64,000 bases of DNA from the human T2T-CHM13v2.0 reference genome, Homo sapiens, in the NCBI RefSeq assembly GCF_009914755.1, contig NC_060928.1. One strand, written 5' to 3'. Position 1 is the first letter of the stretch, and every line of letters begins with the position of its first letter. The notes under the pieces are model-generated. The model was not told the DNA's origin, did no database searches, and saw only the letters and a list, made by a program, of their open reading frames with translations. Positions 5,319 to 40,061 of the stretch are shown in pieces. A program made the translations under genes and the position numbers.

Positions 5319-5670
5319 TGATATGGTTTGCTCTGTGTCCCCACCCAAATCTCATCTTGTAGCTCTCATAATTCCCATGGTTATGGGAGATACCTTGTGG
5401 GAGATAATTGAATCATGGGGATGGGTCTTTCTTGTGCTCTTCTCATGACAGTGAATGGGTCCCACAAGATCTGATGCTTTTAAAAAGAGGAGTTCCCCTG
5501 CACAGGCTCTCTCTCTGTCTGCCACCATCCATGTAAGATGTGATTTGCTCCTCCTTGCCTTCTGCCATGTGAGGCCTCTCCAGCCATGTGGAACTGTAAG
5601 TCCATTAAACCTCTTTTTCTTCCCAGTCTCAGGCATGTCTTTATCAGCAGCATGAAAACTAACTAATACA
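5319..5670 (+). mobile_element. THE1 (THE1B-like) MaLR solo LTR
   Basis: TGATATGGTTTG..TGTGTCCCCACCCAAATCTCATC start and ..CAGCAGCATGAAAACTAACTAATACA end, about 350 bp. Confidence 0.92.
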
Positions 5671-35500: not shown

Positions 35501-35749
35501 ATGTTCGTTTATGGTGTCAGATTACTTTAGTAGAATGAACAGATCTGGGTGAAACATTAAAATAATTAACTTGGATAAACTTCTGATCTGTAGAATAAGG
35601 TGTAAAATATGTACAAGGCAATGTAATATAATAAGAAATGCATCTGTCATTTTATTATTAGTACTGATGCTAGAAAATATAGCTGAAAATTTTTAAGCGA
35701 GTTAGTTACTAGTGAATTTCTGAAATAAAAGTCATAAAACAAACATCAT

Positions 35750-36077
35750 TTTATTAGTCTATTCTCATGCTGCTATGAAGAAATGCCTGAGAAAAGAGGT
35801 TTAATTGACTCAGTTCTGCATGGCTGGGGAGGCCTCCGGAAACTTGAAATCATGGCAGAAGGCAACTCTTCACAGGGCAGCAGGAGAGAGAATGAGCAAA
35901 AGGGGAAAAGGCCCTTATAAAACCATCAGATCTTGTGAGAACTCACTATCACAAGAACAGCATGAGAGTAACTTCCCCCATGATTAAATTACCTCTCATA
36001 TGGTAATACCCACATGGGGATTATGGGAACTACAATTCAAGATGAGATTTCAGTGGGGACGCAGCTAAACCACATCA
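35750..36077 (-). mobile_element. THE1 (THE1D-like) LTR, 3' LTR of the chimeric element
   Basis: TATTAGTCTATTCTCATGCTGCTATGAAGAAAT ... GGAACTACAATTCAAGATGAGATTT..AAACCACATCA, followed by TTCCACCCC (PPT complement). Confidence 0.88.
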
Positions 36078-37651
36078 TTCCACCCCAGTGAAACTATCAT
36101 TGGGCCTCTCCCAAATCTCATGTCCTCACATTTCAAAACACAATCATGCCCTTAAAACAGTCTTCCAAAGTTTTAACTCATTCCAGCATTAACTCAAATG
36201 TCCAAGTCCAAAGTCTGATCTGAGACAAGGCAAGTCCCTTCCGCCTATGAGCCTGTAAAATTAAAAGCAAGTAGGTTACTTCCTAGAAACAATGTGGACA
36301 CAGGCTTTGGGTAAATATACCTCTTCCAAATGGGAGAAATTGTCCAAAACAAGGGACTACAGGCCCCGTGCAAGTCCAAAATCCAATAGGGCATTTATTA
36401 AGCTTTAATGTTCCAAAATGATTTCCTTTCACTACATGTCTCACATACAGGTCATGCTGATACAAGAGGTATCTTCCCATGGTCTTGGGCAGCTCCACCC
36501 CTGTGACTTTGCAGGGTACAGCCTCCCTCCCAGCTTCTTTCACAAGTTGGCATTGAATATCTGTGGCTTTTCCAGGTGCACAGTGTAAGCTGTTAGTGGA
36601 TCTACCAATATGGGGTCTGAAGGACGGTAGCCCTCTTCTCATGGCTACACTACACAATGCCCCAGTGGGGACTCTGTGTGGGTTCTCCAACTCCACATTT
36701 CCCTTCTACACTTCCCTAGCAGAAGTTCTCCATGAGGGCTCTGGCCATGCAGCAAACTTCTGCCTGGACATCTAGGTTTTTCCATACATCCTCTGAAGTC
36801 TAAACGGAGGTTCCCAAATCTCAATTCTTGACTTCTGTACATCCACAGGCCCAACAGCATGTGTAAGCCACCAAAGCTTGGGCCTTGCACCCTCTGAAGC
36901 AGTGGTCTGAGCTGTATGTTGGCCCCCATTAGCCACAGCTGGAGCTGAAGCATCTGGGACTCAGGGTACCATGTCCAGAGGCTGCATAGAGCACAGGGGC
37001 CCTGGGACCCATAGAGTACAGGGGCCCTGGGACCCACCGACAAAACCATTTTTTCCTCCTAGTCTTCTGGACCTGTTATGGGAAGGGCTGCTGTGAAGGT
37101 CTCTGACAAGCCCTAAAGACATTTTCCCCATTATCTTGGTGAGTAACATTTGGCTCCTTGTTACTTATGCAAATTTCTGCAGCAGGCTTCTCCCCAGAAA
37201 ATGGGTTTTTCTTTTCTATTATGTCATCAAGCTGCAAATTTTTCAAACTTTTATGTTCTGCTTCCTCTTGAACGCTTTGCCACTTGGAAATTTCTTTCAC
37301 CAGATACCCTAAATCATCTCTCTCAAGTTCAAAGTTCCACAGATCTCTAAGGCAGGGGTAAAATGCTGCCAGTCTCTGCATAGCAAGAGTGACCTTACTC
37401 CAGTTCCCAACAAGTTCCTCATCTCTATCTGAGACCACTTCATTCTGGACTTCACTACTCATAACACTATTAGCATTTTGGTCAAAGCCGTTCAACAAGT
37501 CTCTAGGAAATTCCAAACTTCCCCACATTTTCCTGCCTTATTCTGAGCTCTCCAAACTCTTCCAACCTCTGCCTGTTTCTCAGTTGTAAGGTCGCTTCCA
37601 CATCTTTGGGTATCTTTATAGCACCACCCCACTCTCTGCGATACTAATATC
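36078..37651 (-). mobile_element. THE1/MaLR internal region, approximately full length (~1.57 kb)
   Basis: ORF remnants such as RDLLNGFDQNA..ELVGNWSK..RDLWNFELERDDLGYL; CAAAGTCTGATCTGAGACAAGGCAAGTCCCTTCCGCCTATGAGCCTG. Confidence 0.92.
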
Positions 37652-38387
37652 TGTATGAGTCAGGGTTCCCTAGAGGGACAGGACTAACAGTGAAACCATC
37701 TTTGCAAAATTATGACTGAGACAGTGAAAGAGATCTAGCTTAACCGACTCCATCTCGTTTCTAACCTCCAAGCTGTCCTTGTTCATTGCTAGGCATAGGC
37801 TGAACTAACTTTGAGAGAAACTTAGTTTATACTTTGTAGTTTAAACAAAGCCGATACACAATCCTTTAACAAGGCAGACCTCCTTCTTGCCTGGGGACTA
37901 GATTACCTTTGTAGGACTAACAACATTAGCCACAAAGTTAGTAATTATGGTTTAGGAGTCATGCAGCTGGAGGCTATAAGATTCTGACCTTCCCTAAATT
38001 ACTCCTAAATTAGTGCTTGAGATATTTTGCAGACTCTGCACTTGACGGATGAGCTGGCACCACCCAGACTGACAAACTAGCTCATCTGATCTTGTGGCCT
38101 CCACCGGGCAACTGACTCAGCACAAGAAGACAGCTTTGACTCCCTGTGATTTCACCCTAACCAATCAGCACTCCTGGATCACTGGCTTTCCCCACATCCA
38201 CCATATTGTCCTTAAAAAGTCTGCTCCTCAAATGCTCAGAGAGACTGATTTGAGTAATAATAAAACTCTGGTCTCCTGCACAGCTGGCTCTGTGTGAATT
38301 ACTTTTTCTCTATTGCAATTCCTCTGTACTGAGAAACCAGCTCTGTCTAGGCAGTGGGCAAGGTAAGCCCCTTGGGCAGTTACAATA

Positions 38388-38434
<47 letters not shown>

Positions 38435-38925
38435 GGGAGTTTATTAAGGATTATTGACCCACACAATCACAAGGTGAAGTCCCACAGTAGGCTGTATGCA
38501 AGCTGAGGAGCAATGAATCCAATCCAAGTCCCCAGATCTCAAAAGTAGGGAAGCCAAAAAGTGCACCCTTCAGTCTGTGGCTGAAGACCAGAGAGACCCT
38601 GGTAAATCACTAGTGTAAGTCCAAGATTCCAAAAGCTGAAGAACATGGAGTCTGATGTTCGAGGGCAGAAAGTATCCAGCATGGGAGAAAGATGAAGGAC
38701 GGAAGACTCAGCAAGTCTACTCATTCCAATTTCTTATGCCTGCTTTATTCTAGCCTCGCTGGTAGTTGATTAGATGGTGCTCACCCAGACTGAGGTGGGT
38801 CTGCCTCTCCCTGTCCACTGACTCAAATGTTAAGCTCCTTTGGCAACACTGTCAAAGACACACCTAGGAACAATAATTTGCACCTTTCAATCCAATCAAT
38901 TTGACACTCAATATTAACCATCACA
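37652..38925 (-). mobile_element. MLT2A (HERV-L) LTR occupying the 5' LTR position; interrupted by LTR8; contains (TA)n at about 38390-38431
   Basis: TGTATGAGTCAGGGTTCCCTAGAGGGACAGGACTAA..ATAGGATATATA..GGGAGTTTATTAAG ... TTGACACTCAATATTAACCATCACA. Confidence 0.9.
37691..38384 (+). mobile_element. LTR8 (ERV1, HUERS-P1) solo LTR
   Basis: TGAAACCATCTTTGCAAAATTATGACTGAGACAGTGAAAGAGATC start, ..GGGCAGTTACA end; 4-bp TSD ACAG/ATAG. Confidence 0.88.
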
Positions 38926-40061
38926 ATCATGAAATCCTGGCTACACCTCAGGGATGTAACACCTAACGATATTAGTGATACTTAACACATTTTCATGGGA
39001 CATGGGAGAAAAGTGGAATGTCATTATGTCAAGTGCAAGTCCAGATGAGCTGTTCATGAAGAATCTATGGAAATGGCTTACAAATATTATGGGTGGGTAA
39101 AGATGTTACAGGAAGAAAATAGCAATTACATTATGTAAAGCAATTCTGTGCTATAATTTAAAGTTGCTTGCAGTTCGGTATTTCCCAGAGAAGTTTTTAA
39201 TTAGGAAATATAAAAACACATCTCAGAGAATGATTTTAAAATCTTCCATCCTCCAAAATGAAAAATGGAAGATATATTTCTTCAATATTGCCAATTTATC
39301 TGAGATTAGATTATTATTTGAAAACATAAAATGTTTAGATATTTTATGAGTAATAAACAATAAACAAATGTCTACTGCTCTACACAGTAGATTACCCCAT
39401 TTCCCCTTTATTTCAAGGTTAGGGGACTAAAGGATATATCACAGAAACAAGGAGCTTTCTCATGGATATACAAGAATGGAGTAAGTTTAAAATAACTTCA
39501 TGGAAAATTGAAAGATTAGTTGACAAACCAAGCTAAGAGATGTAAAGAATGATTGACAACAACAGTGATGCTCAGTTGAGAATGAAAAGCACAATTTTTA
39601 TGTAATGATATGAATGTACATGTTTATGTGTTATTATCTCCAAGTAATCAGCAATCCTTATTCACGTTATAATATCCAAACTCATACATGTTAAATAATC
39701 CTCCGAAATGTTTTTATAATTTGTCAAAGAAACAAGATGGATCATAGAAGCAGTTGAATTTACAATTTTGCTACTCAGAAAAAAAGAAATATCAGATGTA
39801 TACTATCCACCCACTCCTTTGCAGAGATTTTTTTTTTTTTACAAAAACTTGTTTTTAATAGGTTAAACATATTATGGTGTCTGTGTAAGTAGTTGTAAGC
39901 TCACGTTTAAATGTAAATAATTACTTGGAATTTTATATGACATATCACACTTCTGAAACTTGCAACAGTGTACAACCAAGTTTGGGAAGAGAAGGAAGGC
40001 ACCTGGTGATTCCCAAGTGGTGAATGGAAAAGCAAGGCTTCCAAAAATTATATTCAGCCAT

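What the first reader, a model, noticed from the sequence alone, without database searches (positions are those of the whole stretch)
35745..38930. Chimeric retroelement with two different LTRs (HERV-L MLT2A and MaLR THE1) inside one TSD
Seen: on the minus strand, an MLT2A LTR (38925-37652) abuts exactly the start of a full-length THE1 internal region, which ends in a PPT and a THE1-type LTR (36077-35750). There is no second THE1 LTR and no HERV-L internal sequence. The same 5-mer ATCAT flanks both outer ends (35745-35749 and 38926-38930). Established: normal reverse transcription gives identical LTRs; ERVL/MaLR elements make 5-bp TSDs; non-autonomous MaLRs are thought to use ERV-L machinery. 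Inference: one integration of a hetero-LTR molecule, for example HERV-L plus-strand strong-stop DNA transferred onto a co-packaged THE1 minus strand at the primer-binding site. This would be a direct fossil of MaLR/HERV-L co-packaging. Similar junctions may exist elsewhere; I cannot say whether they have been described.
Basis: partly seen in the sequence, partly recalled or inferred. Interest (0 to 1): 0.8.

Follow-up and report, generated by a model that had tools for sequence, protein, structure and literature searches.

The report
Retroelement with two unlike LTRs
This is a fossil retroelement that entered the genome in one piece with a HERV-L repeat at its front end and a THE1-type body and tail, and it is one of at least 18 such human insertions, which is direct evidence that the two families were reverse-transcribed together.

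Summary
On the minus strand a HERV-L-type LTR (38925-37652, split by a nested 694-bp LTR) is followed by a spacer, a primer-binding site, a THE1-type internal part, a purine tract and a THE1-type LTR (36077-35750). ATGAT flanks both ends.

It is not unique. Searches of the same assembly found 17 further independent loci with the same junction. Flanks match at 4/5 or 5/5 bases in 7 of 9 testable loci, against a null of 0.018. In trees the chimeric LTRs and internal parts mix with ordinary HERV-L and MaLR copies, so these are separate events.

Exact whole-genome scans gave:
- 3 reciprocal junctions (MaLR LTR then HERV-L interior), against 73 normal HERV-L 5' junctions.
- 0 unlike junctions on the 3' side, against 1508 and 187 normal ones.

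The mechanism is inferred. Family names were not checked against Dfam, and no outgroup empty site could be tested. Four full-text searches found no description of this class.

The parts
38926..38930 (-). Upstream copy of the 5-bp target-site duplication (ATGAT on the minus strand, ATCAT on the plus strand).
   Evidence: It scores 5/5 against 35745-35749.
38385..38925 (-). 5' LTR, first 541 bp. It is of the HERV-L type (MLT2 group), starts TGTGATGG, and contains an (AT)21 run at 38390-38431.
   Evidence: It is 84-86% identical to both LTRs of the pol-bearing provirus L027 and lies among HERV-L LTRs in the tree.
37691..38384 (+). Later nested solo LTR-like insert. It runs TG...CA in + orientation and is not part of the original element.
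   Evidence: relatives L003 and L009 are 82-88% identical over the whole 695 bp. The flanking 4-mers CTAT and CTGT (minus-strand reading) were read.
37652..37690 (-). 5' LTR, last 39 bp, ending ...GAACCCTGACTCATACA.
   Evidence: it aligns with the LTR ends of HERV-L proviruses and of the other chimeras.
37627..37651 (-). Spacer GATAT (37651-37647) plus the primer-binding-site-like stretch. This is the interval in which the sequence changes from HERV-L type to MaLR type.
   Evidence: Upstream it matches HERV-L LTR ends. The primer-binding-site variant and everything downstream match ordinary THE1-like elements (L002, L004, L006-L008).
36078..37626 (-). THE1-type (MaLR) internal part. It carries a 25-bp tandem duplication at 36985-37036 and ends in the purine tract GGGGTGGAA at 36086-36078.
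   Evidence: It is 75-84% identical over nearly its full length to ordinary MaLR interiors and lies among them in the tree.
35750..36077 (-). 3' LTR of THE1/MaLR type. It starts TGATGTGG and ends CTAATAAA.
   Evidence: After the L016 3' LTR, its best matches are the 5' LTRs of ordinary elements that carry the same primer-binding-site variant (L006, L007, L002, L004, L008).
35745..35749 (-). Downstream copy of the 5-bp target-site duplication (ATGAT on the minus strand).

Best explanation
The element is one retroviral-type integration of a DNA molecule whose two LTRs came from two different families.

Inferred course of events:
- A particle made by HERV-L proteins packaged one HERV-L RNA and one non-autonomous THE1/MaLR RNA. 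Both were reverse-transcribed.
- The HERV-L plus-strand strong-stop DNA (a whole LTR, the spacer and the primer-binding-site copy) annealed to the primer-binding-site complement at the 3' end of the THE1 minus strand, instead of to its own minus strand.
- Extension then gave HERV-L LTR, primer-binding site, THE1 interior, purine tract, THE1 LTR.
- The integrase inserted this molecule and made a 5-bp duplication.

Such a copy cannot breed true. Its RNA would have unlike R regions, so each locus records a separate accident.

Shown here: the anatomy, single integration, recurrence, independence of the events, the reciprocal products, and the restriction to the 5' side.
Inferred: co-packaging and the strand-transfer step.
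For: (1) Anatomy and 5/5 target-site duplication at the window.

(2) The 5' LTR is of the type that flanks a two-LTR provirus with RVT_1, RNase H, rve and a dUTPase behind the integrase (L027). Vargiu 2016 (PMC4724089, passages seen) pairs HERVL with MLT2 LTRs and a dUTPase at the end of Pol.

(3) Eighteen independent loci including the window carry the junction of a HERV-L-type LTR with a MaLR interior. Ten of them show the HERV-L-type 5' LTR, MaLR interior and MaLR 3' LTR in the fetched DNA.

(4) Flanks match 5/5 in 3 of 9 testable loci and 4/5 in 4 of 9. The null for 4/5 or better is 0.018, giving a binomial tail of 2.4e-11.

(5) Independence:
- LTR tree: 16 chimeric and 15 HERV-L rows need 9 label changes, against a shuffled mean of 10.7.
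- Interior tree: 14 chimeric and 11 ordinary rows need 8 changes, against a shuffled mean of 8.5.
- At least three primer-binding-site variants occur among the chimeras.

(6) The change-over lies at the primer-binding site. HERV-L and MaLR interiors share nothing detectable beyond it. The spacer has HERV-L length and form (GATTT, or a one-base variant) in 16 of 17 independent loci read. It is GATTT in 70 of 73 normal HERV-L junctions. In the 100 ordinary MaLR rows printed it is mostly GTAAAT or GAAAAT.

(7) Reciprocal products: 3 exact-pattern hits with a full MaLR LTR upstream and 320 nt of HERV-L interior downstream.

(8) Side bias, same motifs and whole genome:
- MaLR interior end to HERV-L LTR start: 0 hits, against 1508 ordinary.
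- HERV-L interior end to MaLR LTR start: 0 hits, against 187 normal.
- 5' side: 9 true chimeric hits (5 independent) against 1740 ordinary, and 3 reciprocal against 73 normal.
Against: - The strand transfer is inferred from products, not observed. From memory (not checked here), cell-culture work on retroviruses found plus-strand transfer to be almost always intramolecular.
- L018 has the MaLR-type spacer behind a HERV-L-type LTR. Its change-over therefore lies in the shared LTR end, not in the primer-binding site.
- Six of 17 chimeras, the window included, have GATAT rather than GATTT, against 2 of 73 HERV-L junctions. A few ordinary MaLRs also have GATAT or GATTT (L058, L062). The spacer is therefore not fully diagnostic for the window itself.
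- Two of 9 loci (L016, L028) have only 2/5 matching flanks.
- Pattern counts depend on motif survival, so the rates are rough.
No Dfam or RepeatMasker was available.
- No orthologous empty site was examined.
Confidence: 0.7

Rival explanations
1. Complete HERV-L and MaLR DNA copies recombined before integration. Host repair or annealing joined two unintegrated linear DNAs at the roughly 16-18 nt shared primer-binding site, or at the shared LTR end. The hybrid was then integrated.
For: This also gives one target-site duplication, a junction at the primer-binding site, reciprocal products and independent events. L018, whose change-over lies in the shared LTR end, fits a looser homology-driven join. 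The purine-tract side offers less shared sequence, so a 5' bias could also follow.
Against: It needs two finished DNAs in the same place plus an extra host step. The strand-transfer model uses only a normal step of reverse transcription. The tight clustering of the change-over at the spacer and primer-binding site in 16 of 17 loci is exactly what the strong-stop DNA carries.
Confidence: 0.15
2. There were two separate insertions, a HERV-L provirus or solo LTR and a THE1, followed by deletion or unequal recombination at the primer-binding site. The matching ATGAT flanks are then chance.
For: A primer-binding-site-to-primer-binding-site deletion between neighbouring elements in the same orientation would give the same internal junction. 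A 5-mer match alone is weak for a single locus picked from a large scan.
Against: A 5/5 match has chance 0.0011. Seven of 9 loci with this architecture match at 4/5 or better, against a null of 0.018. Neither HERV-L interior nor a second THE1-type LTR is left at the site. The architecture recurs at 18 loci, always with the unlike LTR on the 5' side.
Confidence: 0.02
3. A self-copying chimeric family arose once, with a HERV-L-type 5' LTR and a MaLR 3' LTR, and then spread.
For: Many copies share the same architecture.
Against: - Chimeric LTRs and interiors are scattered among ordinary ones in both trees.
- Both the long and the short HERV-L LTR forms occur among the chimeras, as do several MaLR primer-binding-site variants.
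- By the standard replication scheme (reviewed in PMC6894440, passages seen), progeny get two identical LTRs, so unlike LTRs cannot be inherited.
- The only tight clade is one locus copied by segmental duplication.
Confidence: 0.03

Closest known systems
Ordinary THE1/MST MaLR elements (non-autonomous ERV-L-related LTR retrotransposons)
   Same: The internal part, purine tract, 3' LTR, primer-binding-site variant and 5-bp target-site duplication are the same. PMC2836564 (passages seen) reports 5-bp duplications for MaLRs and the same integration-site bias for MLT2 LTRs.
   Different: The 5' LTR is not a MaLR LTR. In an exact scan, about 1740 ordinary 5' junctions were found against 9 chimeric ones.
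HERV-L proviruses (MLT2-type LTRs, pol with a terminal dUTPase)
   Same: The 5' LTR, the spacer form and the start of the primer-binding site are the same.
   Different: There is no HERV-L leader, gag or pol, and the 3' LTR belongs to another family.
Inter-element recombinants of LTR retrotransposons made during reverse transcription of co-packaged RNAs (Ty1/Ty2, plant families; reviewed by Drost and Sanchez 2019, PMC6894440, passages seen)
   Same: Two families are joined in one insertion, and the explanation is cross-packaging plus a strand transfer.
   Different: The cases cited in that review are described as giving new lineages with identical LTRs through minus-strand switching. Here the two LTRs stay unlike, the join is at the primer-binding site, and the copies are dead ends.
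Mosaic HERVs (Vargiu et al. 2016, PMC4724089; passages seen)
   Same: The paper reports that recombinant forms are common among human endogenous retroviruses, and that MaLR pieces occur in HERV chains.
   Different: The passages read describe MaLR fragments on class I and class II backbones, mostly judged secondary or artefactual, and leave MaLR analysis out of scope. They do not describe a class with a HERV-L 5' LTR, a MaLR interior and matching target-site duplications.

Membership tests
Single retroviral-type integration | Terminal TG...CA, and a short direct duplication of target DNA flush with both outer ends. | tested here: met
   The element starts TG at 38925. Its 3' end reads AA where CA is expected. 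ATGAT is flush at both ends. A 5/5 match has null frequency 0.0011.
Single retroviral-type integration | A primer-binding site just inside the 5' LTR and a purine tract just before the 3' LTR. | tested here: met
   Spacer plus primer-binding-site-like stretch at 37651-37627, and GGGGTGGAA at 36086-36078. That the tRNA is Leu comes from recall and from PMC4724089, which reports that 35 of 87 HERVL chains use L. It was not tested here.
HERV-L provirus | MLT2-type LTRs at both ends. | tested here: not met
   Only the 5' LTR is of this type. The 3' LTR matches MaLR LTRs.
HERV-L provirus | An interior with gag-pol, including a dUTPase behind the integrase. | tested here: not met
   The L027 interior matches the window only at the LTR end and primer-binding site. 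Pfam hits for RVT_1, RNase H, rve and dUTPase were found in L027, not in the window element.
THE1/MaLR element | A MaLR internal part of about 1.6 kb. | tested here: met
   1574 bp, 75-84% identical to ordinary MaLR interiors across nearly the full length, and nested among them in the tree.
THE1/MaLR element | Two LTRs of the same MaLR family. | tested here: not met
   The 5' LTR is of the HERV-L type.
THE1 and MLT2A as named Dfam/Repbase subfamilies | Best match to the curated family models. | not testable with these tools
No Dfam or RepeatMasker library was available.
Strand-transfer recombinant from co-packaged genomes | The change-over lies within what plus-strand strong-stop DNA carries (LTR, spacer, primer-binding site). 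| tested here: met
   16 of 17 independent chimeras read have a spacer of HERV-L form and a MaLR-type sequence from the end of the primer-binding site onward. L018 is the exception.
Strand-transfer recombinant from co-packaged genomes | Independent recurrence, reciprocal products, and unlike LTRs only on the 5' side. | tested here: met
   (no clade). (3 reciprocal loci). (0 hits on the 3' side, against 1508 and 187 normal junctions).
Strand-transfer recombinant from co-packaged genomes | Direct demonstration of co-packaging and intermolecular transfer. | not testable with these tools
   This needs an experiment or outgroup genomes. See the next steps.

The most novel reading that the evidence does not exclude
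Elements with unlike LTRs are a regular, countable by-product of HERV-L particles that carried one HERV-L RNA and one MaLR RNA. The two reciprocal forms arise in similar absolute numbers. MLT2-like LTR ends joined to older MaLR-like leaders (L039 and eight more loci) would extend the same partnership far back in mammalian history. If so, the class gives the first direct, quantitative sequence record that MaLRs were packaged and reverse-transcribed inside ERV-L particles. It also shows that intermolecular plus-strand transfer happens in nature.
Probability: 0.45. Interest if true: 0.75.

Novelty: new variant of a known kind. Interest (0 to 1): 0.62.

Why it matters
MaLRs are the most numerous LTR elements of the human genome and encode no proteins of their own. 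That they were moved by ERV-L has been argued from sequence kinship and shared integration preferences, for example in PMC2836564.

A set of insertions in which a whole HERV-L LTR is joined to a MaLR body at the primer-binding site would be physical evidence that the two RNAs shared a particle. The set has three supporting properties:
- each insertion has its own target-site duplication;
- reciprocal partners exist;
- the unlike LTR is only ever on the 5' side.

The class also offers natural examples of an intermolecular second strand transfer. Such copies cannot collapse to solo LTRs by LTR-LTR recombination, and annotation pipelines are likely to split them into unrelated fragments.

For this locus alone there is no sign of any host function.

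Tried and rejected
- L025 was taken as a HERV-L example. None of the 36 forward ORF pieces scanned, nor the 5 longer ORFs, gave a retroviral Pfam hit, and its sequence behind the primer-binding site is unique. It was replaced by L027. One search, which asked for whole frames containing stops, returned an error.
- I first treated the spacer as a clean marker (HERV-L GATTT against THE1 GTAAAT). Pattern hits then showed ordinary MaLRs with GATAA, GATAT or GATTT (L040-L045, L058, L062). It is now used only as a frequency argument.
- The pattern (58 hits) proved a mixture. By the 110 nt upstream it held ordinary MaLRs, young chimeras, older MLT2-like chimeras and 2 chance hits. It was not used for rates.
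- The idea of one self-copying family was rejected on the trees.
- Literature. Four full-text searches and passages of PMC2836564, PMC2672092, PMC6894440, PMC4724089 and PMC6466679 gave no description of this class. A fifth search failed on a malformed term and was not re-sent. Smit 1993 (PMC309426) and a guessed identifier for Benit 1999 were not held, so an older description cannot be excluded. Supplements of PMC4724089 were not opened.
Only 8 full loci and short stretches were obtained.
Full report
WHAT IS THERE

Read on the minus strand, the stretch 38930-35745 has this order:
- ATGAT.
- An LTR starting TGTGATGG at 38925.
- A nested foreign LTR at 38384-37691.
- The last 39 bp of the first LTR, ending ...CTGACTCATACA at 37652.
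- Spacer GATAT.
- A primer-binding-site-like stretch at about 37646-37627.
- A 1.57-kb internal part ending in GGGGTGGAA (36086-36078).
- A 328-bp LTR starting TGATGTGG at 36077 and ending CTAATAAA at 35750.
- ATGAT.

The apparent 1274-bp length of the 5' LTR comes from a later 694-bp insert, which has relatives at 82-88% identity (L003, L009). One search adds an (AT)21 run in the 5' LTR and a 25-bp tandem duplication in the interior. The window holds no HERV-L interior. Its only other MaLR-type LTR lies 30 kb away, at 5319-5668.

WHAT THE TWO LTR TYPES ARE

No Dfam library was available, so I anchored the types on copies from the same assembly.
- The 5' LTR is 84-86% identical to both LTRs of L027 (chr12:120.596 Mb). 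L027 is a two-LTR provirus whose ORF pieces hit RVT_1, RNase H, rve and a dUTPase behind the integrase. That is the HERV-L layout as described in PMC4724089 (passages seen).
- The interior is 75-84% identical over nearly its whole length to interiors flanked on both sides by MaLR-type LTRs.
- The 3' LTR best matches the LTRs of ordinary elements that carry the same primer-binding-site variant.

THE LOCUS IS NOT UNIQUE

A search of the genome with the window junction gave two hits that span the join from LTR end into the interior. A search with one of them (L005) gave 13 more. More came from a second LTR-end search (L028) and from exact pattern scans.

One locus is present in six copies by segmental duplication (chr2:92.13, chr22:17.13, chr10:38.73, chr10:43.13, chr16:34.65 and chr4:106.24 Mb). 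The four copies placed on the tree form a 100/100 clade. Counting that locus once, there are 18 independent loci including the window.

How much of each was seen:
- Ten loci show the HERV-L-type 5' LTR, MaLR interior and MaLR 3' LTR in the fetched DNA: WIN, L012 (5' LTR cut by other sequence), L013, L015, L016, L017, L018, L020, L021 and L028.
- In four the interior is cut short or no 3' LTR was in the fetched stretch: L011, L014, L019 and the duplicated locus.
- Four were seen only at the junction: L052, L054, L071 and chr1:49.38 Mb.

SINGLE INTEGRATIONS

Nine loci have both outer ends readable. The 5-mers flush with the ends match as follows:
- 5/5 in three: WIN, L013, L020.
- 4/5 in four: L015, L017, L018, L021.
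- 2/5 in two: L016, whose LTR start is degenerate, and L028.

In 1800 offset comparisons at the same loci, a match of 4/5 or better had frequency 0.018. Seven of 9 therefore has a binomial tail of 2.4e-11. This rules out two insertions plus a deletion as a general explanation, and makes it very unlikely for the window.

SEPARATE EVENTS, NOT A FAMILY
- In a maximum-likelihood tree of 31 LTRs, the 16 chimeric 5' LTRs are scattered among 15 HERV-L LTRs. The tree needs 9 label changes, against a shuffled mean of 10.7, and 101 of 500 shuffles were as low.
- In a tree of 25 interiors, 14 chimeric rows are scattered among 11 ordinary ones. It needs 8 changes, against a shuffled mean of 8.5, and 238 of 500 shuffles were as low.
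- Both trees are star-like. The window's end branches are 0.12 (LTR) and 0.13 (interior).
- Chimeras include both the long and the short HERV-L LTR form and several MaLR primer-binding-site variants.
- By the standard replication scheme (PMC6894440, passages seen), progeny receive two identical LTRs, so unlike LTRs cannot be inherited.

WHERE THE JOIN LIES
- HERV-L and MaLR interiors share nothing detectable past the primer-binding site.
- In 11 of 11 HERV-L loci read, the LTR end is followed by GATT, the primer-binding site, and a leader unlike MaLR. In the whole-genome scan, 70 of 73 normal junctions have this spacer and 2 have GATA.
- The 100 ordinary MaLR junctions printed mostly have a one-base-longer spacer (GTAAAT or GAAAAT).
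- Of 17 independent chimeras whose junction I read, 16 have the HERV-L length and form. Six of these, the window included, read GATAT. L018 has the MaLR form.
- Caveat: a few ordinary MaLRs carry GATAA, GATAT or GATTT. The spacer is therefore a frequency argument, and for the window alone it is ambiguous.
- Downstream of the spacer the window has the THE1-type primer-binding-site variant seen in L002-L008.

RECIPROCAL PRODUCTS AND SIDE BIAS

All counts are exact-pattern scans of the whole 3.1-Gb assembly. The reversed-pattern controls gave 0 in every case.

5' side:
- HERV-L LTR end to MaLR interior: 10 hits. Nine are true, of which 5 are independent.
- MaLR LTR end to MaLR interior: 1740 hits.
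- MaLR LTR end to HERV-L leader: 3 hits.
- HERV-L LTR end to HERV-L leader: 73 hits.

The three reciprocal loci have a complete MaLR-type LTR upstream and 320 nt of HERV-L interior downstream at 80-90% identity. One of them carries an internal deletion.

3' side:
- MaLR interior end to HERV-L LTR start: 0 hits, against 1508 ordinary junctions found with the same interior motif.
- HERV-L interior end to MaLR LTR start: 0 hits, against 187 normal junctions.

At the rates seen on the 5' side, roughly 4 to 7 hits would be expected in each 3' scan. This is my estimate from motif survival in the loci at hand.

MECHANISM

A complete foreign LTR on the 5' side only, joined at the primer-binding site, is what results if the plus-strand strong-stop DNA of one genome primes on the minus strand of another. 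The 5' LTR of a provirus is copied from that strong-stop DNA. The 3' LTR comes from the minus strand.

Minus-strand switching cannot give this product. It would put HERV-L sequence into both LTRs or into the 3' LTR. The swap requires both RNAs in one particle, so it implies co-packaging of MaLR and HERV-L RNA.

The similar absolute numbers of the two reciprocal forms fit a rare accident in mixed particles in which MaLR RNAs far outnumber HERV-L RNAs. Chimeras make up about 0.3-0.5% of MaLR 5' junctions, and reciprocals about 4% of HERV-L 5' junctions.

Recombination of finished DNAs at the same short homology is the main rival and is not excluded. L018 and the GATAT spacers show that not every join sits strictly inside the primer-binding site.

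COMPARISON AND NOVELTY

Inter-element recombinants from cross-packaged RNAs are known in yeast and plants (review PMC6894440). Mosaic HERVs are common (PMC4724089). I found no description of HERV-L/MaLR elements with unlike LTRs and matching target-site duplications in four full-text searches or in the passages read. Smit 1993 and Benit 1999 were not available, and supplements were not opened, so prior notice cannot be excluded. I rate it a new variant of a known kind.

LIMITS
- No Dfam names.
- No outgroup genomes.
- Incomplete ends for seven loci.
- Rates taken from exact motifs.

Noticed in passing
window 37691-38384 (+): A 694-bp LTR-like insert (TG...CA) is nested in the 5' LTR. The flanking 4-mers CTAT and CTGT (minus-strand reading) match 3/4. 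Relatives elsewhere are 82-88% identical over the full length, and its last 70 nt match other copies at 94-97%. The family was not named.
   Followed up: partly
window 38390-38431; L052, L054, L078, L038: The AT-rich spot near the end of the HERV-L-type LTR has grown a different microsatellite in different copies: (AT)21 in the window, (CTAT)n in L052, (TG)n in L054, and long (AT)n or (TA/TG)n runs in L078 and L038.
   Followed up: no
window 36985-37036: A 25-bp tandem duplication (2.1 copies, 96% match) lies inside the THE1-type interior.
   Followed up: no
L039 (chr16:68.66 Mb); L046, L047, L053, L064, L066, L067, L075, L082: An older version of the same thing. MLT2-like LTR ends of another subtype are joined to an older MaLR-like leader. 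L039, the only one seen in full, has an MLT1/MST-like 3' LTR, so it too has unlike LTRs. It is not settled whether these are chimeras or an old ERV-L leader that MaLRs inherited.
   Followed up: partly
chr2:92.13, chr22:17.13, chr10:38.73, chr10:43.13, chr16:34.65, chr4:106.24 Mb (L022-L024, L038, L056, L078): One chimeric locus is present in six copies, most of them near centromeres. This was presumably spread by segmental duplication. The four copies placed on the tree form a 100/100 clade.
   Followed up: partly
chr3:147,251,449-147,254,852 (L054 and a hit): A normal junction of HERV-L interior end to LTR start lies 3.4 kb downstream of the L054 chimeric 5' junction, on the same strand. This may be a three-part recombinant, or simply two neighbouring elements. 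It was not fetched.
   Followed up: no
L091 (chr15:56.0097 Mb): In this reciprocal chimera the HERV-L interior jumps from about position 1000 to about position 2400 of other proviruses, which is an internal deletion.
   Followed up: no
whole genome: Exact-pattern hits for 5' junctions are uneven by strand: 19 forward against 39 reverse, and 24 against 49. The 3' junctions (100 against 87) and the ordinary MaLR junctions (857 against 883, 771 against 737) are even. This is unexplained and may be chance.
   Followed up: no
window 5319-5668 (+): A separate MaLR-type solo LTR, 69% identical to the element's 3' LTR.
   Followed up: no
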